Of a stretch of DNA of 64,000 nt, positions 1 through 20,226 are shown one piece after another; the stretch's first letter is position 1; each line of letters opens with the position of its first letter. The stretch covers positions 26,412,001 to 26,476,000 of the forward strand of contig OZ024741.1 of NCBI GenBank assembly GCA_964016885.1. The letters are read 5' to 3'. The stretch comes from Eledone cirrhosa (Eukaryota). Position numbers and translations under genes: made by a program. Under the pieces are notes generated by a model. It did no database searches and was not told the DNA's origin. It saw only the letters and a list, made by a program, of their open reading frames with translations.

Positions 1-347
1 GTACTACAATAGCATCCCCTTACACTATCTCGCTGTATACCTGGATATAGAGTAGTAGTACCCCACCCACCCTCTACCAGATGACTGTACCCCACACCCT
101 CCCACCAGCAGATTGTAAACCTAGATATAGAGTAGTAGCACCCACCCACCCTTGCTTCCTCCCTCACCCAACATGGATATACAGCAATAGTACCTACCCT
201 CCCCAATAGATGTCTCTATAAGAATACAGAGTAACATCCTCCCACCAGCAACACTGGCAACACCAGCACCACCACTGGCAACACCAGCACCACCACCACC
301 AGGGTTCAGGTAGCTGCGTATAAGATGGAGTAGTTTACTTCACTTAC

Positions 348-392
348 CACTTTCAATAACTGGTTTCTCACAAATTCCACATTTCTGTCCAT
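348..392 (-). CDS. VPS41: VPS41 exon, start of RING-H2 finger (GQKCGICEKPVIES)
   Basis: 45 nt, tttcag acceptor, gtaagt donor; CxxC at the position of human CESC; phase consistent. The gene continues beyond both window edges. Confidence 0.85.
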
Positions 393-479
393 CTGAAAGA
401 GAAACAGGCTCAAGTATTAACTGCTACTAAAGGAATATATATCAAACATTGATAATTTTCTTTTTATCAACAAGATTGA

Positions 480-830
480 TATGCGCAGCTTGGTTGGAAG
501 TGGTATCACAACTGGTAGGAGGTAAAATCAGTTGGCTGGAATACGCACTCTATTGTTGCTCGATAGAGTGCGTAGCTCGGAGATCAGAGAGTCACTCCAG
601 GTAGAGCTGTGACTTCTCCGAATTTACAGATCATAGCTCCAATACTATGGAAATATGGTTAGAATGTCTCAGGAAAGAATCACTGGTCAGATTTTATGGG
701 TAAAACAAACAGGCAGGAGACCCAGTCGGATCAACTGGAGACTGTTGCTTCTGACAGGACTTACTGGAAGGAGTGTTTGAGGACTCTGCCCCGACGACCC
801 TCTCCGGAATAAATGGGTGAAGAAGATTTG
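480..830 (+). mobile_element. Degraded RTE-type LINE 3' fragment
   Basis: Translates with stops to LLDRVRSSEIRESLQVE...LQYYGNMVRMSQERITGQILW...GRRP, an RTE C-terminal signature. Confidence 0.6.
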
Positions 831-1327
831 ATAATGTATTGCTAGATATATTGAGCTGGCATAAAGGATTCCATGTTCATGGCTAATATGTCTTTCATCA
901 CAGGTCTCCTTTCACAACCATATTTCTAATGAAATACATTCTATTTTAATTAATTAATGAACATTGTTGAGGGATTTATTAAAATTATTAATCATTTCAT
1001 TACTAAAATATTAACTTAATGTAAGGTTCATATATAAAATTATGTTGGAAGATTTTAATTTAAACTGGAAACCTTTAAAATGTGTGGTTTTATTTCATAG
1101 AACTGGAGCTGGTTTTGGCTGGGTTGGTAACTAACGGGTCAAAGATATATTGGGCTTGAATAAAGATTTCCATATTCACAGCTAACATGTCTTTTGTCAC
1201 ATGTCTGCTTGAAGAAAACAATAACAATTAGTATGTTTGTAGCAGAAAATTTAGAAAGCTACAGGCTTGTACACTTCTAGGTAAATATGAAAAAACAAAA
1301 GAGACATTGTGAAGTATTTCCACTTAC

Positions 1328-1427
1328 AATCGATCATATATCCATGTTGACGAGTTTTGATTTGTTTGGTCAGTAAACTGTAGCTGTCTTTGACAAGGAT
1401 CTTTTGACAACCTTCCAACAGGGCAAT
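1328..1427 (-). CDS. VPS41: VPS41 exon (IALLEGCQKILVKDSYSLLTKQIKTRQHGYMID)
   Basis: Resembles human ILLREGCKKILVADSLSLLKKMHRTQMKG; tag acceptor, gtaagt donor; 100 nt. Confidence 0.93.
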
Positions 1428-1476
1428 CTACAGTAATAACAACAACAACATTACTTATATCTGGTAGTGTGTGTAT

Positions 1477-1640
1477 CATCATCATCATCATTTTATGTCC
1501 GCTTTTCCCTGCTTGCAAGGGTGGGACGGGAACTGATTCTGGCTTGATTTCTACAGCTGGATGCCCTTCCTAACACCAACCTCATTTACAGTGAGTGCTG
1601 GGTGCTTTTTTTCCGTGGCACCTCCACGACCACTTTGTAG
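1477..1640 (-). mobile_element. (GAT)n-tailed short element sharing the RTE 3' UTR
   Basis: ggcttgatttctacagctggatgcccttcctaacaccaacctcatttacagtgagtgctgggtgc is identical to 6638-6702; (CAT)n on the + strand. Confidence 0.75.
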
Positions 1641-1659
1641 TGGAATGATAGGGACTCCA

Positions 1660-1812
1660 GTCCTATCATCTCATTTCTACAGCTGAGTAAACTGGAGCAA
1701 TGTGAAATAAAGTGTCTTGCTCAAGGAAACACCACATCACATCACCCGGTCTGAGAATTGAACTCACAACCTTTTGATTGCAAGCCCAATGCTCTAACCA
1801 CTAAGCCATGTG

Positions 1813-1814
<2 letters not shown>
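1660..1814 (-). mobile_element. tRNA-derived SINE with CORE/V-like central motif
   Basis: Minus strand shows box A tggcttagtgg, box B gttcaattc, then ccttgagcaagacactt; related copy at about 12255-12392. Confidence 0.75.
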
Positions 1815-1876
<62 letters not shown>

Positions 1877-1879
<3 letters not shown>

Positions 1880-4353
1880 AATATAATAAATATAAGAAGA
1901 ATATTCCCACCCCCCCTAAAATCTCGTATGAGAAATCATTGATAACTAGCATAAACTCATTCGTAAAACGTGTTCGGTGGCGTGCGTTCCACTTTGATAG
2001 GAGGTATGATAGCCCTGAGGAGAGGCGTAGTTTTAATAATTATGGATTTAAGACCTATAGGAGCCCCCCGCATAATAGCCTGTTGGATAACTTCGAAAGT
2101 GAGCTATTATCCCTTGTTAGGAATATTAGATATAAAAAATCTAGATGTACCAATAAATTTCAGAGTAAACTAAGTTCAATCGTTAGGGACTTTAGGGATA
2201 ATAAATCCATTCTGGTCCCCTCTGACAAAACTAAAAACTTATATAGTATGGATTATAAAACCTATCGAGGCTTCATTTATAATGAACTACATAGGAACTA
2301 CAAAAAAACAACGCAGAGTAATTTAGATAATATTAATCTGGAGGGGTATAACATAGTGGTAAAATTAGGTCTGGATAAACACACTCAGCCTTATTACCCC
2401 AAGCAGCCTAGATTCACCCTCAAGGACCACAAGGAAGATTTTATTAGCAGACCCTCGGTTAGGCTTATCTGCCCCTCCAAGTCTGACCTGGGGATTATTA
2501 GTAAGGGAATCTTGGATAGCGTTATTCCCCTGGTTAGAGAAAAAACTTTCCTTGAGCTTTGGGGTAACACTAGTGAGGTCATTACATGGTTCTCTACTGA
2601 TTGTGGTCGTGACTCACTAAAATTCATCCAATTTGATATTGATGCTTATTATACATCTATATCTCCTATTATCCTCAATAAGGCCCTCATCCTAGCCATG
2701 CGGAGGGGGGCAATTACTAGGCCACAGATAGATATTGTTCTCGCTGCACGTAAAACCATTATCATGTTTGAGGATAATCTATGGACGAGAAAAAACACAC
2801 CTGATAATTTTGACATCACTATGGGGTCGAGTGACTCTGCTCAAGTCACCGACTTAGTTGGACTATACCTCCTCAATGAACTGCATAGTAACTTCCCTTT
2901 CCTTAGGGGTGGGTTGTACCGAGATGACGCCCTACTCTCCATAGATACTAGTAAGTATAATATAGAGCGCATTAGGAAAAAGCTGCATAGCTTTTTTAAA
3001 ACTTTTAACCTATCCATTACAATGGATGTAAATGATAGAACTGTGAACTTCCTAGATGTTACACTGGACTTGGATAACCATACGTACACACCGTACCATA
3101 AGCCCAATGAATTGCTGACTTACGTGAATACCAACTCCAACCACCCTAGGTCTGTCATCAGCGGTATACTGAAGGGCGTATCTAACAGAATAAGTTCACT
3201 CTCACATAGTGAGGAGGCGTTTGACTCGCAGGCTGATTACTATAACGACGCCTTAGCTAGATCCGGCTTTAGGGACAAATTGTATTACACCCAGGGAAAT
3301 AATGGTCCTAATAGTAGCTCTACCAGTGTTGTTATAACACATAATATGTCCATTGGTAATCGAGGTGTCGCGAATGGGAGGGTTCTAAATGCCGGTGGAA
3401 TGAAACAGCAGGGCACCATTAGTCTAAGTAATAACAATAGAGGTGTCGTGAACGGGAGGTTTCTAGATGCCGGTGGAATGAACCAGCAGGGCACCATTAG
3501 TCTAAGTAATAGCAATGGTGGGCCTCGCAGCTCCCCGCATAGACTAGGTGAGCATAGGAACCGTAGAAATAATAATGCTAATAATACTGATGGAAATAGA
3601 AAGAATAAAAAGAATAGAAGAAGATTGAATACATACTTCAACCCCCCTTTTAATTCTGAAGTGGCTACAAATATTCCTAGGGCCTTCTTCTCTGTGCTAG
3701 AACGGAACTTCCCTCCTGGTAATAGGTACCACTCTATCCTCAATAAGAATGTTGTTAAACTTTCGTATTCTACAACCCAAAATCTGGCCTCTCATCTGGC
3801 CATTACTAATAATAAGAAAATAAAGGAAGGCCTGGACAACCTAAGCCTAGGGGAAAACACGGTAGTGGATAGAGTGGGCAGTAACACTGGTGGTAATCTT
3901 TCTGAGAATAGCATCACCAGAGGTTGTAACTGTAGAAGGGCTTCAGGCTGCCCCCTGAATGGTTTCTGCCTTGTTAGAAACATAGTTTATGCGTGTGATG
4001 TGGTAACTACGGCGTCCACTATGACCTATATAGGATCAACTTCCACCCCCTTTAAGACCAGGTTTAACTCTCATCAATGCACTTTTAGACATAATAAACT
4101 GAAGAACTCCACCTCCTTGGCAGCGTACGTCCATAATTTAAAAAATGCACGAACACCTTACACACTTACTTGGCGGCAGGTTGCTAAATCCCATCCATAT
4201 ACTCCTCATAGTAGAGTATGCAACCTGTGCCTTGCCGAATCCCACTCTATTATATTTGCTAAATGCCCTCTACTAAATAGAAAGTCTGAAATTTTTTCCT
4301 CTTGCCCCCACCGAATATTAAGCTCTTTCTTCTACTTTAAACCTGTTAGCTAG
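1877..4353 (+). CDS. Penelope-like RT plus C-terminal GIY-YIG endonuclease
   Basis: RT motifs FDIDAYYTSI, MGSSDSAQVTDLVG, YRDD; CNC-x5-C-x5-C linker; IVY...YIGST...FKTRFNSH...CNLC...LNRKSE...CPH endonuclease; no internal stops; no ATG at the 5' junction. Confidence 0.93.
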
Positions 4354-5759
4354 CACGTCCTTATTCCTCCAGTTGGGCTGTCTTGTGTAACTGTCTCTGA
4401 CTGAGTGTAACTGTCTCCTAATGTTGGTCGTCTATGTATACGAGTCTGTGAATGTATACGTATGCCTGTGGGAGGATATTGATCTTGATATTGGGGTGTG
4501 CAGGGGAGTGTATGTTAATAAGCACCCCTGTTTGGTACAGTGGATGTAACCCATCCACGCTGGCCTACCCACCATTAGTGCATTGGTGGACCTATCCTAA
4601 CGTATATCTTGTTGATCTGTACCTCTGTATGCGCACGAGTTGTGATGTAATGTATTTATGTAAAGCGTGTACTGTGATTTAGGCTGCACTAGTAGAAATT
4701 TAGCCTGTAACTGTGGGCGGACCCGTGCCATCCTGCCGTAAGCAGTGGATACGTGGCGCATATACGTGTTGCCCTCATATTCTGTGGTTCAAGATCTACA
4801 GGCTGACCTCTGGGAGCTCTTACCCGGGGTTGTAGTCTTTCTAGCACGATCGGCCTTCCATATATTGACGGTCGTTTTTATGATCCCGAAAGTAACGTTT
4901 TGGCCCCGATGGCCCTCCGTAGTTACTAACGGTCTGTGTACACTCGAATCGGTCAATGGCACGTGCAGACATGAATATCTCCGTAGGATTTCAACTTTAT
5001 TTTAATACATCTCATCGTATGTATTTGTTTTGAATATATTACCTGTGGTGGTGGGTCTGGTCTAATGTGGTATTTCGGTGTTTAATATCGTATTTAATAT
5101 CGTATTTAATATCGGCTTTGACCCGGGTGTCCTACGCTGTGTGTGTGTGTCCGTGTATACATTTATATGTGTATGGGTGTAGGTGGTTATATGTGTCTGT
5201 GTATATATATAAAAAAATATATATATATATATATGTATACCGTCTCTGCATATGCATGTGGTGTGTATACGTGCATATACGTGCTGAACATATTGATGTG
5301 TACAATCTTGTGATGTCCCAATGCGGTGACTTAATGGCTCTTGAAGCTATTTTTTTTATATATCTTCTGTCTTTTTATATATATTTTGTATGCGCTACAA
5401 CTGTGTCTGCTTGCTTTAACCTCACCTCGCTTGCTAATGCATGTGAATTCTTCTACCTCCTTCGATGCACCTCTCTCTGACCATTTGACTCCTGCCCGTG
5501 TGTGAACCGGTTTGTGATTACCCCACCGCTCAACTGTGTGAATGCACACCCATGACTTTCGAGTGAACTTTCGAGACTGCCCAACCTGGGACGCCTCCAT
5601 TGCCTTGCAATGGTCAAGTGATACTGGTGACTGTGACACTTAGTGCCTTCGTGGGCCCCTGATGTTTTCAAGAAATATATTTTAAAAAATTGGTCAAGTG
5701 ATACACATAACTGTGACATTTAGTGCCTTCGTGGGCCCCTGATATATTCAAGAGATATA

Positions 5760-5859
5760 TTCTAAAAAAATATATATCTTATCTCAATTTACTTTATTTC
5801 ATTTTATTTTATTTCATTTCATGTTATCTAATTTTATTTATTTACTTACTTGACTCCAT

Positions 5860-5899
<40 letters not shown>

Positions 5900-6290
5900 A
5901 TTTAAATTTAAATTTAAATTTTAAAATTTTAAAATTTAAATTTTATTTATTTATTTAATTTTTATTTATTTATTTATTTATTTATTTAATTACATTTAAT
6001 TATACATTTAATTATATCTTATATTATATTATTTTAATTTAGTCTATGTTATTTGATTTTAGTTTACCTTATTTTATCTTATTTTACGATTATACTATAT
6101 TATGTTCTATGTATATAATTTTTAATTTTTAATTTTATATTATTTTATCTCATTCCTTACCCTATATTTTATATTTTATATGTAAGTTTGTTATGTATTT
6201 CTTTGTATTTCTTTTTATATATATTATAAGTCTGTTTTTCACCTATTTTTTACCTATTTTTTACCTACTCTTACCTAATCCCATTATCTT
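5760..6290. repeat. Extremely AT-rich (TTTA)n/(TTTAAA)n tract
   Basis: Direct reading. Confidence 0.8.
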
Positions 6291-6815
6291 ATCTACTCTT
6301 GTCTGTTCTCTTATCCATGTGTCTACTCTTGTCTGTTCTCTTATCCATGTGTATGCTTGTATGTAACTATATGTTGACAGCACCCCGCCCAACTGTGACT
6401 GATAGCACCCCTTATTTTTATTTTTATTTTTATTTTTATTCTTATCCTCTATCGTCTATTATTACCTTTCATTCTTCAATGTCTTGGATTTGTTATTGCT
6501 TGTATGGTATGTCATCATCATCATCATCATCACCGTTTTACGTCCGTTCTTCCACGCTAGCATGGGTTAGACGGGTTGTCCTGTTGTGGGCAGTGTCTGG
6601 TCGGCTGACCATGCCTTGCTCATACAGGAACTGATCTGGCTTGATTTCTACAGCTGGATGCCCTTCCTAACACCAACCTCATTTACAGTGAGTGCTGGGT
6701 GCTTTTTCGTGGCGCCTACACGTCCACTTTACAGTGTGGGCTGGGTGCTTTTTTGCCGTGGCACCTCCACGACCACCTTGCGGTGGGGGGGGGGGGGGCA
6801 TATTGTTTATATGCT

Positions 6816-9800
6816 TCAGCATGTACCCATGGGAGGTCGGGTACCCTGTATTACTGCGTGACGCCAGAAGTCACGGTCGTGTGTCATTGACTTTGAGAGG
6901 TGTAGTTGGGTAAGGTCGGCTTTTATCACCTCATCCCAAGTCATCTTGGGTCTCCCCACTCCGCGGTTTCCATCAACTTCTAGTGCTCTGCACCTTTTTA
7001 TGCAGCTGTCATCCTTCATACGCATCACATGCCCATACCAGCGTAACCGCCTCTCCTGCACGCAGCATTTGATTCCTCTTATGCTCAGTCTCTCTCTCAA
7101 TTCATTTATGCTTTGTCGTTCACGTATATTACTGTTACACATCCATCGGAGCATGCAGGCTTCGTTTCTCTCTAATCTACGTAAGTCTTCCACCTTCAGC
7201 GCCCAGGTCTCACTACCATGCAACATCGCTGTTCGGATACACGCATCATACAGTCTGCCTTTCATTCTGAGGGAGAAGCCTTTTGCAGCTAGCAGTGGTA
7301 GTAGTTCCCTAAACTTCTTCCATCCCGTTCTTACCCTAGTTATTGTACTTTCTGAGCACCCACCTCCGTTGCTAATTCGGTCACCTAGGTAGCAGAAGCT
7401 GTCTACTGTTTCTACAGGGCCCTCCCAGAGATTGGTGGTACTTGTTTCCTGTGGCTGTTTGCTTGCTGTTTCAGCACAGCTGCTGCATGTGAATCCTACA
7501 TTCTTAATTAAGCTTCCTGAGATCCCGCTACATCTCTTGTGTACCCATTGTTTGCATTTGGGGCAAAGAATGGAGTTCCTACCTACACCTTTCCTACATA
7601 CTGAGCAAGGCCATTTCCCTGAGGGGATCTGGGTTCTGTTTTCTCGTCTACTTATAAGGACCTTAGTCTTTGTCATGTTGACTTTGAGGCCCTTTCTCTC
7701 TAGTCCCTGCTTCCAGGTTTGGAATTTATTCTCTAGTTCTACCATAGATTCAGCTATGAGTGCGAGGTCATCAGCATACAGGAGTTCCCATGGGCATCCG
7801 GTCTTAAACTCCTCCGTTATTGCCTGCAGGACTATGATGAACAGGAGAGGGCTAAGAACAGAGCCCTGGTGGACCCCAACCTGTACGCTAAATTCCTCGC
7901 TATACTCATTGCCAATCCTAACTTTGCTGACTGCTCCCCTATACATGGCTTGTACCGCTTTCACAAGCCATTCATCTACTCCTAGTTTTCTAAGAGCCCA
8001 CCAGATTACTGCACGTGGAACTCTGTCAAAGGCTTTCTCAAGGTCGACAAATGCCAAGTAGAGTGGCTTACTTTTAGCTAGGTACTTTTCCTGTAATTGC
8101 CTCACAAGGAAGAGCGCATCAGTGGTGCCTTTCCCTGGAACAAACCCAAATTGCATCTCGTCTATATTCACCCGGTCCCTAATCAGCTGTGCTATAACTC
8201 TTTCTGTTACTTTCATGACCTGGTCCATCAACTTTATACCTCTATAGTTTCCTCTATCTAGTGCATCGCCTTTACCTTTGTAGCAGTTGACAATGATGCT
8301 ACTGCACCAATCTTTTGGTATGGCCCCCTCTAGTATTACCTGGTTAACGATACGTGTGGTTATAGTGTGACCTACAGACCCAGATGCCTTCAGCATCTCG
8401 GCAGCTATACCCGATGGACCGGTTGCCTTCCCTATCTTCATATCTCTGATTGCCTTACTTACTACGCTGCCGCTGACTTGTACTGCTGGTCCCTCTATAG
8501 GGTCTACGTGGGGTAGGGTCTCTTCTTCCCATGCATTCTCCTCATTTAGTAATCTATCATAATGACTCTTCCATGCATCTTTCTTCTCAGCACTTGTGAG
8601 GGCAAGCTCACCTTTATCATTCCGGATACACTTCTCTCCAATGACATCACAACTATCTCTGACACACTGCCTCGCAATCTTGAATACCTCCTGTTTCTGG
8701 TCCTCACGTTGTAAAACATGCTTGAATTTTCTATCCTCTGCTTCCCTCCTAGCTAAGTATACTTGTCGCCTAGCTTCCCTCTTGGTCTCTATGTAATGTA
8801 CCCTGCTCCCCCCGTTCTTCCATTCTTTCCATGCCTGTCTCTTGGCCTTGACTGCTTCATCTACCTTATTGTTCCACCACCAAGTCACTCTCCTCCTGCT
8901 TGAGGTCTTACTCCAGCCACAAACCTCATCCGTCGCCTCTAGTAAGTTATTTTTTAGGAACTCCCAGTTCTCTTCTACGTTAAATGTCTCTATCTGTTCT
9001 TCTTTACTGTCGTAGGCGTTGAGTAAAATATCTTTAAATCTGTTACTGGTTGAGGGGACTTTCAGCTTCCAGATCTTTCTTCTCCAGGTTGGCCTCTGTT
9101 TCAGGGCTCGTCTAGTTCTGACCGTGAGGTCGCTGACAACTAAGCTATGTTGGGATGTACATTCCTCACTAGGGAAGGCTTTTGTGTTTACGACCGTCCA
9201 TCTGTCACGTCCTCTGATGAGGATAAAATCTAACTGACTAGAGTGCTCCCCTGATCTATAGGTGATCAGGTGGTTGTCGGGTTTTTTAAAGTTTGTGTTA
9301 CATATCGACATGTCATTGGCGTCGCAGAATTCTAGAAGTCTGAATCCTTCCTCATTCCTTGTGCCAACTCCATGGCCTCCATGTACTCTATTGAAGCCGT
9401 CGCAGTGTTTACCTACGTGTCCGTTAAAATCTCCTGCAATGATTAGGAAGTCCTTGTCGTCTGTTAGAGCAGTAGTGTGTATTAGGGACTCGTAAAACCT
9501 ATCCTTAAGTTCGTCTGGCAGCCCCGATTGGGGTGCGTAAGCTGATATTATTGTGGTAATTGTCTTATTCAGGACTAGTCTGAGTTTAATGATTCTTGCA
9601 TTTACCCTGTACACTGAGATTACTTTATCTACCCACTTGTCAGCTAATAGTATACCTACACCACCCATCCCATCGTCATTTCCCACCCAGAAAAATTTGT
9701 AGCACTGGCTTTTTCCTACAAGGACTCTAGCAGACCCTCCTCTCCATCTAGTCTCTTGCACACAGCATACATCAACTTCCTTTCGCTCTAGCATTTCTAC

Positions 9801-9935
9801 GATTTCTCCTGCTCTTCCTTTCATTGAGCCTACATTGATGGTACCAACTCGGAGTTTTGGGCATTTGTCGACACTCGTAGGGGAGGGTCTCTGGGTTGGC
9901 GCTTCACGTGGGTGCTTGGTAGCTCGCAGATTCAT
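6816..9935 (-). CDS. RTE LINE ORF: APE endonuclease, RT and PHD-like Zn finger (1039 aa)
   Basis: GTINV, VQETRW, YAPQ, GDFNGHVG, LDFIL; FVDLEKAFDRV, QGSVLSP, YADD; FCYLG, GSETW, RRLRWYGHVMR. Confidence 0.96.
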   Translation of the reverse strand: MNLRATKHPREAPTQRPSPTSVDKCPKLRVGTINVGSMKGRAGEIVEMLERKEVDVCCVQETRWRGGSARVLVGKSQCYKFFWVGNDDGMGGVGILLADKWVDKVISVYRVNARIIKLRLVLNKTITTIISAYAPQSGLPDELKDRFYESLIHTTALTDDKDFLIIAGDFNGHVGKHCDGFNRVHGGHGVGTRNEEGFRLLEFCDANDMSICNTNFKKPDNHLITYRSGEHSSQLDFILIRGRDRWTVVNTKAFPSEECTSQHSLVVSDLTVRTRRALKQRPTWRRKIWKLKVPSTSNRFKDILLNAYDSKEEQIETFNVEENWEFLKNNLLEATDEVCGWSKTSSRRRVTWWWNNKVDEAVKAKRQAWKEWKNGGSRVHYIETKREARRQVYLARREAEDRKFKHVLQREDQKQEVFKIARQCVRDSCDVIGEKCIRNDKGELALTSAEKKDAWKSHYDRLLNEENAWEEETLPHVDPIEGPAVQVSGSVVSKAIRDMKIGKATGPSGIAAEMLKASGSVGHTITTRIVNQVILEGAIPKDWCSSIIVNCYKGKGDALDRGNYRGIKLMDQVMKVTERVIAQLIRDRVNIDEMQFGFVPGKGTTDALFLVRQLQEKYLAKSKPLYLAFVDLEKAFDRVPRAVIWWALRKLGVDEWLVKAVQAMYRGAVSKVRIGNEYSEEFSVQVGVHQGSVLSPLLFIIVLQAITEEFKTGCPWELLYADDLALIAESMVELENKFQTWKQGLERKGLKVNMTKTKVLISRRENRTQIPSGKWPCSVCRKGVGRNSILCPKCKQWVHKRCSGISGSLIKNVGFTCSSCAETASKQPQETSTTNLWEGPVETVDSFCYLGDRISNGGGCSESTITRVRTGWKKFRELLPLLAAKGFSLRMKGRLYDACIRTAMLHGSETWALKVEDLRRLERNEACMLRWMCNSNIRERQSINELRERLSIRGIKCCVQERRLRWYGHVMRMKDDSCIKRCRALEVDGNRGVGRPKMTWDEVIKADLTQLHLSKSMTHDRDFWRHAVIQGTRPPMGTC

Positions 9936-10249
9936 ATTTCATCTATTGATTCAGAGTTGCTCGTGTATTCCCAGCTCATCCATCCCTAACGGTGGGAAAA
10001 TTGAGGGCTAGAAGGACAGTGGTGGTGGGGTAATGGCAGGGTGTGTTGGGATGCGCCAGAGGAGGAGAGAGTTAGTTAGGCAGGTAGTAGCAGCAGCAGC
10101 AGTGGAAATGGCATGCTAGGTTTGATTGGTCGAATAGACTATGGTGGTGTGTGGGGGTGGGGGGGAGGGAAATTGTGAGGTAGGAACTGAGGGTCGCATG
10201 GTAAATATCCAAGTTAATACTACATCAGTAAAATTAACAATAATAACGT

Positions 10250-10839
10250 CATGAAAAAAGCTACTAAGAGAAACCCTCGAAAATTTATCGCTAATACAGC
10301 AGGGAAAATTTAACGCTAATACAGCAGGGAACATCATAATATTAACGACATGAAAAAGCTACTAAGAGAAACCCTCGAAAATTTATCGCTAATACAGCAG
10401 GGAAAATTTAACGCTAATACAGCAGGGAACATCATAATATTAACGACATGAAAAAGCTACTAAGAGAAACCCTCGAAAATTTATCGCTAATACAGCAGGG
10501 AAAATTTAACGCTAATACAGCAGGGAACATCATAATATTAACGACATGAAAAAGCTACTAAGAGAAACCCTCGAAAATTTATCGCTAATACAGCAGGGAA
10601 AATTTAACGCTAATACAGCAGGGAACATCATAATATTAACGACATGAAAAAGCTACTAAGAGAAACCCTCGAAAATTTATCGCTAATACAGCAGGGAAAA
10701 TTTAACGCTAATACAGCAGGGAACATCATAATATTAACGACATGAAAAAGCTACTAAGAGAAACCCTCGAAAATTTATCGCTAATACAGCAGGGAAAATT
10801 TAACGCTAATACAGCAGGGAACATCATAATATTAACGAC
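10250..10839. repeat. 98-bp tandem array, 6 units (2 more at 11149-11346)
   Basis: Unit starts at 10250, 10349, 10447, 10545, 10643, 10741; units nearly identical. Confidence 0.93.
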
Positions 10840-11510
10840 AATATGTAGGCTAAAATACCTTCGTAGATTAGGTGGATGGCTGGCTGGGAAAATTTGAATC
10901 AGCTCTAGTGGTACATTTTAGCAGAGAAGAATGGCAAAGTGTCTTATCTCTTCAATATTTTCAGATTGAATGAATTAGGTTAAAGACAGGGTAGTAAGCC
11001 TTAAAGAAGTGCATAGAGGGGGGGGGGGTAGGAACTGAGGGTCGCATGGTAAATAACTGAGAGAGATACAATAGGATTAGAATACCGCATGGTAAATATC
11101 CAAGTTAATAAGTTAATACTACATCAGTAAAATTAACAATAATAACGTCATGAAAAAAGCTACTAAGAGAAACCCTCGAAAATTTATCGCTAATACAGCA
11201 GGGAAAATTTAACGCTAATACAGCAGGGGACATCATAATATTAACGACATGAAAAAGCTACTAAGAGAAACCCTCGAAAATTTATCGCTAATACAGCAGG
11301 GAAAATTTAACGCTAATACAGCAGGGAACATCATAATATTAACGACAATATGTAGGCTAAAATACCTTCGTAGATTAGGTGGATGGCTGGCTGGGAAAAT
11401 TTGAATCAGCTCTAGTGGTACATTTTAGCAGAGAAGAATGGCAAAGTGTCTTATCTCTTCAATATTTTCAGATTGAATGAATTAGGTTAAAGACAGGGTA
11501 TGTAATTAAC

Positions 11511-11568
11511 CTTTATGCTCTGATGAGTCCCACTTATAGTGCGGATGAAACAATGTTAGCAAGTAAAG
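11511..11568 (+). ncRNA. Minimal type I hammerhead ribozyme
   Basis: cuuua-ugcu CUGAUGA gucc-cac-uuaua-gug-c-ggau GAAAC aau GU U agca-ag-uaaag: stems I, II and III pair and the catalytic core is intact. Confidence 0.85.
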
Positions 11569-11699
11569 ATATGCATATGCTATAAGCGTTCTTTGTTATT
11601 TATTTATTATATTACGGCTCTGTCCTCAGACATTGAGCTAACCTCATACTGCCTGCTGGATAAGTGGAGTGTTATACACCCCTGATCCTTTCCCTAGCA

Positions 11700-11768
<69 letters not shown>

Positions 11769-12050
11769 CGCAAAAGGTAAACAGAAATAACACAGTACAA
11801 CAAACAAAAATGTATTAGTTTTACGCTTGATATAGTAGGAAAAAAGTTTTAACATTTCGGAAGCTAGTCCTTCATCAGAAAATAGAATGATAAATTAAAG
11901 AAGAAATAGAAAAATAAAGGAGTGAGCGGTGGAAGAAACAAAAAAATTTCTTTGAGAAAAAACAGATCTATTCACACCACCATCTCTTGGGAAACTGTAG
12001 CATGGAAAATAGATGTTAAAAATGATGATATATATTTAACATCTAAAGTC

Positions 12051-12188
12051 TGTCTCATGCCAGGAGGCTTGTCAGGCTGGTGCTTATACCTGTTTCATGC
12101 CAGGAGGCTTGTCAGGCTGGTGCTTATACCTGTCTCATGCTAGGAGGCTTGTCAGGCTGGTGCTTATACCTGTTTCATGTCAGGAGGT
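12051..12188. repeat. 40-bp minisatellite, about 3.4 units
   Basis: tgtytcatgccaggaggcttgtcaggctggtgcttatacc repeated. Confidence 0.9.
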
Positions 12189-12254
12189 GACAGAGAGTAC
12201 AAGACTTCCTCCTGGACAGGATGCCTGTCCACCATTAGATTAAAACCCCAACTA

Positions 12255-12392
12255 TTGCTGGTACTCATTTCAGCTGAGTTTAGTGGAGCAATGTGAAATG
12301 AAGTGTTATGCTCGAGAACACAACACACAACCCAGTCTAGGAATCAAACACAACATTATGATTGTAAGTCCAACACCCTTACTACATGGCTA
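12255..12392 (-). mobile_element. tRNA-derived SINE, same family as 1660-1814
   Basis: Shared ctcattt.cagctgagt...tggagcaatgtgaaat.aagtgt. Confidence 0.65.
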
Positions 12393-12404
12393 TGTATCTC
12401 CTGT

Positions 12405-12797
12405 ACACAACACAATACACCACAACATATCACAACTACAGACACAATACAATACAACCACACTGCAACTACACAACACCACAACTACACACTACACAAC
12501 ACAACACCACAACTACAACACCACAACTACACACCACACCACCACAACTACAACACCACAACACCTCTACTACACACTACAACACCACAACTACACACTA
12601 CACTACACAACACCACCACAACACAACTACACACTACAACACAACTACACACCACACCACCACAACACCACAACACCTCTACTACACACTACAACACCAC
12701 AACTACACACAACACAACCACCACACCACCACAACAACTACACACTACAACACAACTACACACCACACCACCACAACTACAACACTAAACTACAACA
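12405..12797. repeat. Degenerate CA-rich simple repeat (CACAACTACAC-like)
   Basis: Direct reading. Confidence 0.9.
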
Positions 12798-12834
12798 TGG
12801 AACAAAATATTGTAAATAAGCAACACAACTTTAC

Positions 12835-12971
12835 CTGGATTTGATAATCCTGGAGGATCTTGACGAGGGAATCTCGCAGTTTTGGGATCTGCATACCATT
12901 CTGTATCCTCTGGATGAGGATAATGGGGTCAACATGGGTCCCTATGTTCTGTAGAAGGCCTGTGATGAATC
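12835..12971 (-). CDS. VPS41: VPS41 exon (FITGLLQNIGTHVDPIILIQRIQNGMQIPKLRDSLVKILQDYQIQ)
   Basis: Near-identical to human FITGLLNNIGTHVDPILLIHRIKEGMEIPNLRDSLVKILQDYNLQ; 137 nt, phase consistent. Confidence 0.96.
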
Positions 12972-13069
12972 CTGTTGGATAGGGACAGAGATGCAGGTAT
13001 TAGTCCAGTGGGATTGACAAGCTAGGAAGGGGTGGTCACTATTTCAGGGAGGGGAATATATAGGTAGAG

Positions 13070-13520
13070 AGGGTAGCTGAGAATAGTGGTGGTGGTGGTG
13101 TGGGTAGCTGAGAATGGTGGTGTGGGTAGCTAGGATGGTGGTGGTGGTGAGGGTAGCTAAGATGGTGGTGGTGGTGAGGGTAGCTAAGGTGGTGGTGGTG
13201 AGGGTAGCTGAGAATGGTGTTGTGGGTAGCTAAGATGGTGGTGGTTGTGGTGGTGTTGGTGTGGGTAGCTAGGATGGTGGTGGTGTAGGTAGCTGAGGTG
13301 GTGGTGGTGGTGTGGGTAGGTGAGATGGTAGTGGTGGTGGTTGTGTGGGTAGGTGAGATGGTGGTGGTGGTGTGGGTAGCTGAGGTGGTGGTGGTGGTGT
13401 GGGTAGGTGAGATGGTAGTGGTGGTGGTTGTGTGGGTAGGTGAGATGGTGGTGGTGGTGTGGGTAGCTGAGATGGTGGTGGTGGGGGTAGCTGAGATAGT
13501 GGTGTGGGTAGCAAAAATGG
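13070..13520. repeat. Degenerate G-rich repeat (GGTGGTGGTGTGGGTAGCTGAGAT-like)
   Basis: Direct reading. Confidence 0.9.
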
Positions 13521-13927
13521 TGTGTGAGTGTCAGGGATGGTGACAGCAGAGAATAGTGGTGTGGCATGGTTGGGGGGTGTGGGATGGCCAGTAAGGGTGA
13601 CTGAGTTCCCATGGTAAGCTCTGAGAGGTATTGCCTATGACAGTTGTCACGGTGACCCAGTCAAGTGTGGTTGCTATGGTGAGTCATAGAGTGGTTTGTA
13701 AATCAACCAAGAGAAGAGAGGGGAGGTTACTCTTTAACAGAAGGAGAGAAAATTTGTGTGGCTGATGTGTGTAGCGTGTATGTGAAAAGCAATGTCTGTA
13801 GTTTATTGGGAAAGAGACTCCTCAGGTCATCCCACAGCATTTGGTGCGTGTGCATGTATGTATATGTGTATATATACACTTATATATACAAACAGACACA
13901 CAGACAGACATACACGTTTATCTTGCA

Positions 13928-13996
<69 letters not shown>

Positions 13997-14574
13997 ATTG
14001 TCATCATCATCATTGTTTAAGATCTTTCCCGGCTAACAAGGGCTTGATGGGTTGTCACAGACCAGATACTCCACCATCAGAACTACTGATCCCTTAGATA
14101 GGTTGGAGTGTGCACCTTGCTTACCTATGCTCCCACAGGGTGAGAGCCTGCATTACATATGATCCTATATTCCACTGAGTACCTGTTATCATGGCACTAA
14201 CACTAATGAGGTTGTCATGTCTTTGACATAGCTGATGAGCCATCCCAATCCTTTGTTTGAGAGGTTTTCTATGGCCAGATGCCCTTCCTATAACCAACCC
14301 TTGTGTATGTGTGTGTGTGTTTGTGTATATATATATATATTGGTAAAATGGTGTGACACCTGTTTTGTATATCTGTACGAAATGAAGGTAAACCCCAAGG
14401 TATTCACCAGGTGTAATCCCAAACTCCCGAGAGATTACAATGAAACTCTGTACACACAGTTCCACTGACACTTCAGTTCTTATTTATAGAGTTTCACCTG
14501 GTCCACTTTTAGTTACATGGAGGTATTCAGGGTTTTTTGTCCACAACACACACACATATATATATATATATATG

Positions 14575-15300
14575 AAATAGTCCTATATGAGACACAGTCA
14601 CCCAACCCTACTTGCCTCAAGTGGGACAATTCTTGTCTAACCCATGCTAGCATGGAAGATAGATGTTAAACGATGATGATGATGATATATATGTTAAACG
14701 ATGATGATGATATATATATAGTAGTGAAAAGACGGGAGGTTATATCTAAAGTTGGTAGAACATTCAGTTTAGAGAACTCATGCTAGCATGGAAGATGGAC
14801 ATTAAACGATGATGATGAATATGATGAACAATAAACAAACCAGAATCTATCCAGCTCATAAATACTTCCGTTCTCAAAATAACCATACACTAGTTGAATA
14901 ATCCTTTTAGGTGAACCATGTGTCCTTAAGTATTCTGTGTTAATTGTTGTGGAACTAACTATCTCTCTCTATATATATATCATCATCGTTTAATGTCTTT
15001 TTCACTGGGTTAGATGGGTTTGCCCCATTTGAGGCAAGCTGAATTGGGTGACATGTCTTACTCATATAGGACTGTTTCTGGATAGTTTTCTACGGCTGGA
15101 TGCCCTTCCTAACACCAACTATATTTACAGTGTGGGCTGGGCGCTTTTTGCCGTGTCTCCTACATGACCACTTTACAGTGTGGGCTGGATGTTTTGTGAT
15201 ACCAACATAAAATATATATATATGATGATTATATATATATATTTGTGCCATCATCATCATCGTTTAACGTCCATCTTCCATGCTAGCATGGGTTAGACGG
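14575..15300. mobile_element. Cluster of (GAT)n-tailed short elements in both orientations
   Basis: ctaacccatgctagcatggaagat..gttaaacgatgatg at about 14637-14686 and 14779-14817; reverse copies at about 14981-15205 and 15249-15300. Confidence 0.7.
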
Positions 15301-15341
15301 TAATCATCACACATACACGCATATATATATATATATATATA

Positions 15342-15552
15342 TATAATTAGTTACAACAGTGACATATATAGGCACTTAAGATTTGTTGAGTTATTCACCT
15401 CCGACTCATTCAGACAGTTACATAAAAAAGAAGATGGCTACTACCACAGTTGATTGGAGGTGTTTAGAAAAATACAAGAGCTCTGCAAGGGCAGGTAATT
15501 TCCAAATTAGCTAAACGTAAGTACCTGTATGTCACAGTTGTAACTAATTATA
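15342..15552. repeat. MITE-like imperfect inverted repeat, arms about 35 bp
   Basis: tataattagttacaacagtgacata.. versus ..tatgtcacagttgtaactaattata. Confidence 0.7.
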
Positions 15553-15615
15553 CTTAACTCGTCCTATGGACTGAGTGTTCTTACCTTTGGATATTTCTAC
15601 CAAACTTATACTACA

Positions 15616-15663
<48 letters not shown>

Positions 15664-15666
<3 letters not shown>

Positions 15667-16306
15667 CTCAGCCTGGTAGAAAATGTTGAGAAGCCAGAGG
15701 GGATCACTAATGTAGGCAGGAAGCCGCTAGAATTGGTTGAGGACTTCCTGTATTTGGGAGCAAAGATTGGGAATACGGAAGATGATGTGGTTGAGAGGAA
15801 GAGCAAAGCCTGGGCGGTGTGCCACAGCTTGAGATCGATGTGGAAGTCGGACCTCCGTAAAGACCTGAAAATCCGCCTCTTCATTGCTGTAGTGGAGTCT
15901 GTGCTGCTGTACGGGTCTGAGACTTGGACACTGACCAAGAAACTCATTCAGATGGTGGATGGGTGCTACACGAGAATGCTGAGGATGGCTCTGAACATTA
16001 ATCAGTATACACTGAGGATGAAAAACTCAGAGCTATATGGGAGCCTCCCAAAAGTGACACAGAGGAGACTGAGGTTAGCTGGATATGCTCACCGACATCC
16101 AGAGTTGACATTGCACTCAGTACTCCTGTGGGAGCCCCTACATGGACACGCTGGAAGAGGAAGACCAAGGTTAACGTATGTTGATGTCCTAAGGACAGAC
16201 ACTGGTCTGTTGGAGACGCAGGACATGGCAGCGATAATGAGAGACAGAGACCGCTGGAGAGAACTCGTCCATGGATCTCAGGAACTTTACCCGCCCTAGA
16301 ATAGAA
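15664..16306 (+). mobile_element. 5'-truncated RTE/RTE-X-like LINE 3' end within a (TA)n tract
   Basis: Open frame VEDFLYLG...VLLYGSETWTLTK...RRLRLAGYAHR...GRGRPRLTY; ends TAGAATAGAA; (TA)n on both sides. Confidence 0.85.
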
Positions 16307-17759: not shown

Positions 17760-19003
17760 AACATGTAGCTGTGTATAGAAGGTATTGAAGAGATGTAGCT
17801 ATGTATAGAAGGTATTGGAGACATGTAGCAGTGTATAGAAGGTATTGGAGACATGTAGCTGTGTATAGAAGGTATTGAAGACATGTAGCTATGTATAGAA
17901 GGTATTGGAGACATGTAGCTATGTATAGAAGGTATTGGAGACATGTAGCTGTGTATAGAAGGTATTGGAGACATGTAGCTGTGTATAGGTATTGGAGACA
18001 TGTAGCTGTGTATAGAAGGTATTGGAGACATGTAGCTGTGTATAGAAGGTATTGGAGACATGTAGCTGTGTATAGAAGGTATTGGAGACATGTAGCTGTG
18101 TATAGAAGGTATTGGAGACATGTAGCTCTGTATAGAAGGTATTGGAGACATGTAGCTATGTATAGAAGGTATTGGAGACATGTAGCTGTGTATAGAAGGT
18201 ATTGGAGACATGTAGCTCTGTATAGAAGGTATTGGAGACATGTAGCTGTGTATAGAAGGTATTGGAGACATGTAGCTATGTATAGAAGGTATTGGAGACA
18301 TGTAGCTATGTATAGAAGGTATTGGAGACATGTAGCTGTATATAGAAGGTATTGGAGACATGTAGCTGTGTATAGAAGGTATTGGAGACATGTAGCTGTG
18401 TATAGAAGGTATTGGAGATATGTAGCTGTGTATAGAAGGTATTGGAGACATGTAGCTGTGTATAGAAGGTATTGGAGACATGTAGCTGTGTATAGAAGGT
18501 ATTGGAGACATGTAGCTCTGTATAGAAGGTATTGGAGACATGTAGCTATGTATAGAAGGTATTGGAGACATGTAGCTGTGTATAGAAGGTATTGGAGACA
18601 TGTAGCTGTGTATAGAAGATATTGGAGACATGTAGCTATGTATAGAAGGTATTAGAGACATGTAGCTATGTATAGAAGGTATTGGAGACATGTAGCTGTG
18701 TATAGATGGTATTGGAGACATGTAGCTGTGTATAGAAGGTATTGAAGATATGTAGCTATGTATAGATGGTATTAAGGGACATGTAGCTGTGTATAGAAGG
18801 TATTGGAGACATGTAGCTATGTATAGAAGGTATTGGAGACATGTAGCTTTGTGTATAGAAGGTATTAAGGGACATGTAGCTGTATATAGAAGGGTTGGAG
18901 ACATGTAGCTTTGTGTATAGAAGCTATTTGGAGACATGTAGCTTTGTGTATAGAAGGTATTAAGGGACATGTAGCTGTATATAGAAGGGTTGGAGACATG
19001 TGG
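17760..19003. repeat. 30-bp minisatellite, about 41 units
   Basis: acatgtagctgtgtatagaaggtattggag repeated. Confidence 0.96.
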
Positions 19004-19410: not shown

Positions 19411-19860
19411 CTGTTATAAAAAAAAGGCATAAGTTTTTTCTTAAACAAAAATATTTAACACTTTTAATTCAAAAACATCCATAGTTATAATAATAATAAT
19501 AATAATAATAATGAAATATTGTGTACAGTGCTCAGGTGCACTACAACTCATCAAAAAGTGTATGTATAGTACATAGGGTAATGTACAAACGTCAGGAAAA
19601 TGAACAGTGCATGAGTCATGATATACACATGTGTGCATGTGTATGGAAGGGGTACATCAGGTGTAGTTCTACAAGACAAAACAACTTGTTGTAAAATCTT
19701 CATATTTATATTAAAAGCTGCCAACATAATTTTACGTAAGAACTTTTGTTATGTTATGCTCCAAACATTAGCTTAATAATGAAAAGGTTATTTTACTAAG
19801 TTGCCCAAAATTTCTGATTATCCTCAAAATTTATTTAAAACAAAATGTTTATGTACGCCA

Positions 19861-20226
19861 TTAGGATTATGGTAACATATTGGCAGTGTAGTTCACAAGG
19901 ATTATGGTAACAACAGGGCTGTGTAGTTCACTAGGATTATGGTAACATATTGGCTGTGTAGTTCATTGGGATTATGGTAACATATTGACTGTAGTTCATT
20001 AGGATTATGGTAACATATTGGCTGTGTAGTTCACTAGGATTATGGTAACATATTGGCTATGTAGTTCATTAGGATTATGGTAACATATTGGCTGTGTAGT
20101 TCATTGGGATTATGGTAACATATTGACTGTAGTTCATTAGGATTATGGTAACATATTGGCTGTGTAGTTCACTAGGATTATGGTAACAAGGCTGTGTAGT
20201 TCACTGGGATTATGGTAACATATTGG
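19861..20226. repeat. 35-bp minisatellite, about 10 units
   Basis: taggattatggtaacatattggctgtgtagttcac repeated. Confidence 0.93.

What the first reader, a model, noticed from the sequence alone, without database searches (positions are those of the whole stretch)
1877..11702. Nested retroelement: a (TA)n-bounded Penelope element separated from its hammerhead ribozyme by an intact antisense RTE LINE
Seen: the PLE ORF starts at one (TA)n tract, and a second (TA)n tract follows about 135 nt after a same-strand hammerhead. The RTE between them is bracketed by GGTATGT, and removing it gives ...ttgtatGGTATGTaattaacctttatgctCTGATGA, so it landed 7 nt upstream of ribozyme stem I. Known: PLEs carry minimal hammerheads in their terminal repeats and several clades favour microsatellites. 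Inference: this is a single element of about 4.8 kb with an unusually long (about 2.3 kb) non-coding 3' region. Both ORFs lack stops, so both insertions look young.
Basis: partly seen in the sequence, partly recalled or inferred. Interest (0 to 1): 0.75.

Follow-up and report, generated by a model that had tools for sequence, protein, structure and literature searches.

The report
Long Hydra-type Penelope split by LINE
One young jumping gene (a LINE) has landed inside a front-clipped copy of another (an unusually long Penelope-type element), which is an ordinary event, but the copies of that Penelope family stop at just two fixed points, and back-to-back copies use one of each, which likely shows the enzyme starting to copy one RNA at two hairpin signals on the two DNA strands.

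Summary
The nesting is real. In 29 of the 30 best copies of 11504-11702 the upstream sequence is 6450-6512, uninterrupted (the 30th is this locus); the LINE junction occurs once in the genome. Corrections: the Penelope-like element (PLE) is not intact. It lacks the leader and first 11 codons; the full unit is about 5.0-5.2 kb. The 7-nt duplication overlaps LINE sequence by 4 nt. The LINE itself favours TATAT sites (10 of 11 other copies), so landing beside the ribozyme looks incidental. The PLE meets the motif tests of the Hydra clade (DKT, CxCX5C, no CCHH, hammerhead, (TA)n) but is twice the length of published families. Most interesting: 93 termini fall at two sites 94 nt apart, each just before a GGCUC/GAGCU bulged hairpin. 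Inverted insertions carry one end of each kind in 35 of 35 cases (sister family 15 of 15), and the two arms usually share a haplotype. This window's 5' junction looks like a vestigial second arm. One-sided tails and two start sites are known for other PLEs, and this scan noted the hairpin and one-sided tail before on other DNA.

The parts
1471..1814 (-). Flanking SINE-like repeat: tRNA-like head at the (TA)n end, 3' end shared with the LINE, (CAT)n tail. Not part of the PLE.
   Evidence: Rfam tRNA 1751-1808, 31.6 bits; 73 nt identical to LINE 3' UTR 6635-6707
1815..1876 (.). Left (TA)n tract, target remnant
1877..1895 (-). Likely vestigial inverted second arm: about 10 nt of the short (S) end, stuttered twice
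   Evidence: Of 1460 distinct (TA)>=8 tract ends in held loci, 9 continue with ATAAATA: 8 are S ends of this family, the ninth is this junction. Inferred.
1896..4353 (+). Hydra-clade PLE ORF (RT, Asn-rich insert, CxCX5C linker, C-terminal GIY-YIG-like endonuclease), 818 codons, 5'-truncated: lacks the leader and first 11 codons of the 829-aa protein
4354..6512 (+). PLE 3' UTR, upstream part (2159 nt): 80-nt tandem pair at 5611-5769, AT-rich tract 5788-6148; ends in GGTATGT (6506-6512)
   Evidence: Colinear with other copies; repeats
6513..11496 (-). RTE-type LINE, 4984 nt: (CAT)6 tail 6513-6530, 3' UTR, single ORF 9935-6816 (1039 aa; APE, RT, PHD-like finger), 5' region of tandem monomers holding 98-nt repeats (10239-10840, 11138-11347)
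11497..11503 (+). Second copy of GGTATGT; GGTA is also LINE sequence (5' microhomology)
   Evidence: junction unique in the genome
11511..11568 (+). Type I hammerhead motif of the PLE; predicted cut after 11557; short palindromic stem III
   Evidence: Core in sequence; 3 pairs with changes on both sides in stems I-II across 13 copies of the related families. Cleavage untested.
11612..11639 (+). Short-end site S (about 11612) and hairpin 1 (11616-11639: GGCUC, 4-bp inner stem, 2-nt bulge, GAGCU)
   Evidence: 44 of 93 termini end here, 39 at one base; helix 100% paired, 2 pairs with double changes
11613..11706 (+). 94-nt tail ending at long-end site L (CATAC, then TATA shared with the target); hairpin 2 follows only in read-through copies elsewhere
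   Evidence: 49 of 93 termini end here, 42 at one base; read-through junction in L023
11703..11763 (.). Right (TA)n tract
11770..11998 (-). Older, different repeat whose hammerhead-like motif (about 11846-11882) faces the same (TA)n tract. Not part of this PLE.
   Evidence: 2628 candidates, best other copies 78-85% identical; motif seen in 6 of 11 fetched copies

Best explanation
The stretch is a 5'-truncated copy of a young, roughly 5.1-kb Penelope-like retrotransposon with the motifs of the Hydra clade, lying between two (TA)n tracts and split in its 3' UTR by a young RTE-type LINE; the PLE likely inserted by nicking both strands of a (TA)n target and priming reverse transcription at two hairpin-marked sites of one RNA. 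SHOWN: contiguity of the two PLE halves in other copies; a unique LINE junction with duplicated target; two fixed 3' ends (S and L) 94 nt apart, each within 2 nt of a CGGCUC hairpin start; one S plus one L in every inverted insertion scored; tandem units of 5.0-5.2 kb in which the L end runs into hairpin 2, a leader and the ATG. INFERRED: a dimer of the PLE protein binds the two hairpins; each nicked strand anneals by TA microhomology at one site; two cDNAs grow inward and are joined head to head. One cDNA often aborts, which gives a single copy between TA tracts; here the L-primed cDNA ran 4.8 kb and the S-primed one about 10 nt. The template probably reads through the hammerhead site (uncleaved multimer, or cleaved and circularised RNA). 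The LINE came later, nicked at GTATGT, a near match to its usual TATAT target, annealed its (AUG)n tail there, and finished at the 5' end by a 4-nt microhomology. The PLE copy was probably dead on arrival (no leader, no ATG).
For: Empty-site junction in 29 of 30 loci and no LINE upstream in 100 of 100 C1 hits; LINE junction 1 match genome-wide. Leader and ATG in other copies: 26 of 30 ORF-start loci show the hairpin-2 leader; the other 4 are this locus and 3 copies cut inside the leader. Hydra motifs. End positions. S+L in 35 of 35 inverted insertions among 83 loci, the other 48 being single-ended, 26 L and 22 S; 0.5^35 is about 3e-11 if ends were independent. Sister family at 57-68% protein identity: 15 of 15 (counted by eye). 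Arms of one insertion identical over 155 nt in 11 of 18 pairs against 13% across loci. Hairpins kept in families whose UTR bodies do not align. LINE 3' ends on ATAT in 10 of 11 other sites. In vitro precedent for two internal start sites, cutting of both strands and a predicted dimer in another PLE clade (PMC11167929).
Against: No biochemistry or RNA evidence for this family. Shared arm haplotypes could come from gene conversion or from two RNAs of one source locus, and 5 of 18 pairs were not nearest to their own partner in the 385-nt comparison (3 of these have an arm shorter than the window). Hairpin 2 has no pair changed on both sides, so its structure rests on conservation and likeness to hairpin 1. 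In the pair-count control, 'pairs with a change on both sides' did not beat the shuffles (235 of 500), and the 13 rows are related. In the Anolis element the start sites are in an AC-rich stem-loop without homology to the target, unlike the TA microhomology inferred here. 5' truncations do not cluster at the predicted hammerhead cut (2 of 100 hits stop 3 nt from it). The vestigial arm is about 10 AT-only bases. Clade placement was not tested on a tree.
Confidence: 0.7

Rival explanations
1. Same elements and nesting, but the one-sided tail is made at resolution: one cDNA is primed at L, and the inverted S-ended arm arises by fold-back or template switching followed by endonuclease cutting of the intermediate at S. 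The hairpins would then be cutting or stop signals and not priming signals.
For: Craig et al. attribute the tail to EN-mediated resolution; Arkhipova et al. favour self-priming from palindromes at inverted junctions. Some arms meet at adjacent positions, as a fold-back would (L263, L143). It also predicts shared haplotypes and one end of each kind.
Against: Single-ended copies of the S type are common (22 of 48 in this family; nearly all in the sister family), and either arm can be the long one, which fits two independent primings. Two RT start sites matching the tail ends were measured in vitro for another PLE.
Confidence: 0.2
2. The LINE targets the hammerhead-proximal site of this PLE, as a specific parasite or a means of silencing it.
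For: The insertion lies 7 nt from stem I and separates the ORF from the ribozyme and end signals.
Against: The junction is unique; 0 of 100 other hammerhead hits carry the LINE; other LINE copies sit on ATAT in 10 of 11 cases; 1896-6512 holds 72 TATAT/ATATA and 25 TATGT/ACATA words; the host copy already lacked its ATG.
Confidence: 0.03
3. 11504-11702 belongs to a different element, or the arrangement is an assembly chimera of three abundant repeats.
For: (TA)n tracts collect several hammerhead-bearing families; public reads could not confirm either junction.
Against: The segment is joined to 6450-6512 in all other copies examined; an exact duplication flanks the LINE; no N in 1-12000.
Confidence: 0.03

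Closest known systems
Hydra clade of C-terminal-endonuclease PLEs (Craig et al. 2021, PMC8557442), including Hydra-1_Obim of Octopus bimaculoides
   Same: RWK-like motif (RWR here), DKT, CxCX5C linker, CxxC and CxH around the conserved E and N, no CCHH, sense hammerhead near the 3' end, (TA)n target, partial tandems and inverted 5'-truncated arms.
   Different: Unit of 5.0-5.2 kb against 1080-3045 bp for the 27 listed families; 3' UTR about 2.2-2.6 kb; tail of 94 nt against the 30-40 nt given for PLEs; Asn-rich inserts in the ORF; a hammerhead sequence unlike that listed for Hydra-1_Obim, so a different family.
Poseidon_Ac (PAc) of Anolis carolinensis (Frangieh et al. 2024, PMC11167929)
   Same: Two internal RT start sites whose spacing equals the genomic tail; AT-rich target; both strands cut and extended; predicted dimer; hammerhead cleavage not needed in vitro.
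   Different: Other clade; its start sites lie inside the ORF in an AC-rich stem-loop with no homology to the target. Here they lie in non-coding RNA, end in TA matching the target, and each precedes a copy of one hairpin.
Adineta vaga Pen1, Pen2a (Arkhipova et al. 2013, PMC3846280)
   Same: Long spacer between ORF and 3' pLTR (0.9-1.5 kb in Pen1); Asn-rich insertions between RT and EN; tail on one inverted pLTR; nesting with other retroelements.
   Different: Pen1 spacers differ between copies (captured DNA). Here the spacer is family-wide and longer, and its length is similar in sister families whose sequence does not align.
Octopus RTE LINEs, e.g. RTE-2_OV (Petrosino et al. 2022, PMC9115989)
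   Same: Single ORF of about 1000-1100 aa with endonuclease, RT and a zinc finger; recent activity.
   Different: That element is described with a C2H2 finger and UTRs of about 600 nt; this one has a PHD-like finger, a 5' monomer array and a TATAT target bias. No sequence comparison was made.

Membership tests
Penelope-like elements (EN+) | Single ORF with RT and C-terminal GIY-YIG endonuclease | tested here: met
   One 829-aa ORF in intact copies; RT motifs and IVY..TYIG region conserved in alignment with 11 homologs. Pfam gave no hit, so the domain call rests on motifs.
Penelope-like elements (EN+) | Partial tandems (pLTRs) and inverted 5'-truncated arms with a one-sided tail | tested here: met
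Penelope-like elements (EN+) | Type I hammerhead near the 3' end | tested here: met
   Core and stems in sequence, paired changes; activity untested
Hydra clade | RWK motif; DKG changed to DKT | tested here: met
   RVRWRAF (K to R; homologs RWK/RWR/RWQ) and SDKTKN; criteria
Hydra clade | CxCX5C linker before the endonuclease | tested here: met
   CNCRRASGC
Hydra clade | No CCHH motif; CxxC and CxH flanking conserved E and N | tested here: met
   No conserved Cys pair between the IVY and YIG motifs; CNLC..E..N..CPH
Hydra clade | Insertion into (TA)n | tested here: met
   86 of 93 termini joined to TA-rich sequence by a strict filter
Hydra clade | Generally short (<3 kb); descriptive in the source, not diagnostic | tested here: not met
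   Unit 5214 nt in L163; tandem spacings about 5.0-5.1 kb. Filed as a long variant for this reason.
Hydra clade | Branches with Hydra RTs on a tree | not tested
   Named reference proteins were not held as sequences; homologs are almost all unnamed
Neptune / Nematis / Poseidon / Naiad clades | CCHH in the endonuclease, DKG or DKA; N-terminal endonuclease for Naiad | tested here: not met
RTE-clade LINE | Single ORF with APE endonuclease and RT, no ORF1 | tested here: met
   single-ORF property as stated
RTE-clade LINE | Short 3' UTR ending in a short tandem-repeat tail, with target duplication (recalled) | tested here: met
   About 285-nt 3' UTR, (CAT)6 on the + strand, GGTATGT on both sides
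RTE-clade LINE | RT phylogeny with RTE references | not tested
   226 homologs, best 55% identical, none named by clade among the 120 listed; the label RTE rests on architecture and recalled motifs

The most novel reading that the evidence does not exclude
These long Hydra-type PLEs carry a duplicated bulged hairpin that loads a reverse-transcriptase dimer on a single, ribozyme-circularised RNA, so that both strands of a (TA)n target are primed at once, one at each hairpin. Inverted arms, one-sided tails, pLTRs and multi-unit tandems would all be outcomes of this one reaction, and a roughly 150-nt two-hairpin cassette would be enough to direct any RNA into TA microsatellites.
Probability: 0.3. 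Interest if true: 0.75.

Novelty: new variant of a known kind. Interest (0 to 1): 0.42.

Why it matters
The nested insertion is ordinary. The value lies in the host family. How Penelope-like elements integrate, and what their tail and ribozyme do, is still open: one element has been studied in vitro (PMC11167929), and the circular-template idea is a proposal (PMC4209133). This family is young, has many open-frame copies, ends at two single-base positions marked by the same small hairpin, and follows a one-of-each rule without exception in 50 scored insertions. That turns a qualitative remark in the literature into a sharp prediction that can be tested with a defined RNA and a defined target. 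It also roughly doubles the known size range of the Hydra clade.

Tried and rejected
Rfam scan of 1-16000 at E<=1: only low-complexity hits and one tRNA-like head; no hammerhead, twister or HDV call. MFE folding does not recover the hammerhead as a whole. Pfam finds nothing on the PLE ORF. Public runs: no RNA holder listed. Laying contigs and RAD reads on both LINE junctions showed no record bridging either; the left junction region was skipped as repeat, so allele state (empty, PLE-only, nested) stays open. Clustering of 5' truncations at the hammerhead cut: not seen; this neither supports nor excludes a circular template. A second gene in the 3' UTR: only frames of 67-185 aa in L163, the longest built on an internal repeat; rejected. 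LINE targeting of the ribozyme: rejected. A longest-common-substring search for vestigial arms in single-ended copies stopped on a script error after 26 of 42 entries, finding 2 short inverted arms; it was replaced. Literature searches turned up no paper counting S/L pairing, describing a duplicated hairpin at PLE ends, or describing TA targeting by an RTE. The library lacks most subscription papers, including the 2005-2006 PLE reviews; Repbase was not searchable; and the supplement of PMC8557442 was only partly read, so priority is not established.
Full report
Observation. The window is G000:C2:26412001-26476000 of a 3.0-Gb animal genome. The host is probably an octopod: one of the few named homologs of the PLE protein is from Argonauta hians, and earlier scan notes call the genome octopus; I did not determine it further.

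The nesting. 11504-11702 has 1637 candidates in the genome. Of 30 fetched loci, 29 continue upstream into the sequence of 6450-6512 with a single copy of the 7-mer (GGTATGC in L023); the thirtieth is this locus (three rows were read from the BLAST table because the printout was cut). An unselected set, the first 100 of 1004 exact hammerhead-core matches, was fetched with flanks: none has the LINE upstream. The LINE/PLE junction matches once in the genome. In other LINE copies the 5' monomer continues GACAGGGTAGTAAG, so GGTA is shared by LINE and target, and the true duplication is 3-7 nt. The LINE is 99.7-99.9% identical to 9 other copies and 99.3-99.5% to 2 more over 1.5 kb. Of 12 distinct 3' flanks of this LINE tail in held loci, 10 end in ATAT, one in TTAT, and this one in ATGT. 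The site is thus a near match to the LINE's usual target inside a TA-rich host, and closeness to the ribozyme needs no special cause.

The PLE copy is clipped. In 26 of 30 loci matching the ORF start, the upstream sequence is the element's own 3' region, then hairpin 2, a leader and an in-frame ATG 11 codons before window 1897; three more are cut inside the leader. An intact copy (L163) has a 5214-nt unit, an 829-aa ORF and 2656 nt from stop to end. Head-to-tail arrays of 2-3 units occur on C1002, C15 and C4; units within an array are 99.8-100% identical against 98.3-98.4% between arrays. Many copies have open frames. The window ORF is 99.6% identical to L163.

Clade. Against the criteria in section 11 of Craig et al., the protein has RWR for RWK, DKT, CxCX5C, CxxC and CxH, and no CCHH; it has a sense hammerhead and joins TA-rich DNA at 86 of 93 termini. 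It fails only 'generally short': the 27 listed Hydra families are 1080-3045 bp. Sister families in the same genome at 57-68% protein identity have 1.6-2.3 kb between ORF and hammerhead that does not align to this family by blastn, and the best-sampled one has units of about 5.05-5.1 kb. No tree was built. Long spacers and Asn-rich inserts have precedent in rotifer PLEs.

Two ends, two hairpins. Of the 100 hits, 7 read through into a next unit, 44 end at site S (39 at one base; window about 11612) and 49 at site L (42 at one base; window 11702-11706). Both sites lie within 2 nt of CGGCUC, which opens a hairpin of the same shape: 5-bp GGCUC/GAGCU stem, 2-nt 3' bulge, short inner stem. Across 13 copies from the related families, hairpin 1 is 100% paired with 2 pairs changed on both sides; hairpin 2 is 100% paired in the 12 rows that hold it but has no such change; hammerhead stems I and II have 3 such pairs. 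Controls were mixed: percentage paired, cells with double change and covariation score beat all 500 shuffles and all slid versions, while the number of such pairs did not (235 of 500), and the rows are related.

The one-of-each rule. Among 83 insertion loci on C1 (71 scored as 72 groups, plus 11 of the 12 regions fetched; L298, a complex double, was left out), 35 are inverted and all 35 have one S and one L outer end; 48 are single-ended (26 L, 22 S). In the sister family (1014 matches) 15 of 15 inverted insertions are S+L, while single ends are nearly all S (the 30 loci reach only 1.5 kb, so some partners may be missed). The two arms of an insertion are identical over 155 nt in 11 of 18 pairs against 13% across loci (sister: 3 of 9 against 2%); over 385 nt the own partner is nearest or tied in 13 of 18. 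At this window's 5' junction, the (TA)n continues with ATAAATA, the reverse complement of the S end; that continuation was found at 9 of 1460 distinct tract ends, 8 of them true S ends and the ninth this junction. I read 1877-1895 as an aborted S arm.

Mechanism. Most likely the protein acts as a dimer on one RNA, nicks both strands of (TA)n, and primes at S and at L by TA microhomology; the cDNAs are joined head to head, and one often aborts. [quoted passage not shown] The rival, tail formation by fold-back and endonuclease resolution, is not excluded. Hairpin 2 lies beyond the L end, so L-ended copies that include the ORF need a template that reads through the unit boundary, or hairpin 2 is dispensable. 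A ribozyme-cut, circularised RNA would supply it, as Cervera and de la Pena proposed, but nearly all copies read through the cut site and only 2 of 100 stop within 3 nt of it, which does not separate circular from uncleaved templates. Order of events at the locus: an older hammerhead-bearing repeat (best copies 78-85% identical) and a SINE flank the TA tract; the PLE entered the tract; the LINE entered the PLE. The last step is shown by the duplication; the earlier order is inferred.

Papers seen. PMC8557442: outline, passages, sections 3, 6 and 11, supplement part 2 of 59 and two supplement searches. PMC11167929: parts 1-2 of 4. bioRxiv 10.64898/2026.07.22.740005: part 1 of 5; its supplements were not seen. 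PMC3846280, PMC4209133, PMC7761336, PMC13282606, PMC9115989: passages only. RTE tail and motif features are recalled. Earlier scan notes were read only after these analyses; several report the Hydra assignment, the hairpin and the one-sided tail on other DNA of this and other genomes. They are unreviewed and are not counted as support.

Verdict. The nesting is ordinary. The host is a long variant of the Hydra clade whose end structure makes the PLE integration mechanism testable. Interest 0.42.

Noticed in passing
window 24346-63359: A 39-kb array of a 48-nt unit (815 copies, 94% matches) fills most of the window; smaller arrays at 17761-19001 (30 nt) and 19859-20226.
   Followed up: no
window 10179-11500; L169-L193: The LINE's 5' region is an array of roughly 400-850-nt monomers, each holding 98-nt repeats; at least 11 monomers in a row at C1:61.5 Mb. 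It may be a renewable promoter, as in mouse L1 (recalled).
   Followed up: partly
window 6513-6530; L245-L255: This LINE family prefers TATAT targets (10 of 11 other 3' junctions); one literature search listed no paper on TA targeting by RTE elements.
   Followed up: partly
window 11846-11882 (-); L002, L012, L068, L194, L197, L204: Several unrelated hammerhead-like motifs lie next to the same (TA)n tracts as this family's ends, so TA tracts collect PLE-like elements; L204 holds a tandem of about 225-310-nt hammerhead repeats that looks retrozyme-like.
   Followed up: partly
window 3300-3600 and 3830-3910: Asn/Gly-rich inserts in the PLE ORF, including a 78-nt tandem pair at 3358-3516; the closest homologs have their own Asn-rich inserts at the same places.
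   Followed up: partly
L197, L199, L205, L212: Sister Hydra-type families (57-68% protein identity, open frames up to 877 codons, 1014 hammerhead matches for one) are also young; in that one, single-ended copies are almost all S-type, unlike the near-even split here.
   Followed up: partly
L162:1003-4404: Another copy of this PLE is interrupted by a 3.4-kb insert with no long ORF, placed in a TA run of the 3' UTR and starting with a short inverted repeat; nesting in this family is not unique to the window.
   Followed up: no
window 15544-16299 (+): A 251-codon open frame resembling the C-terminal part of another LINE ORF, starting at a TA tract.
   Followed up: no
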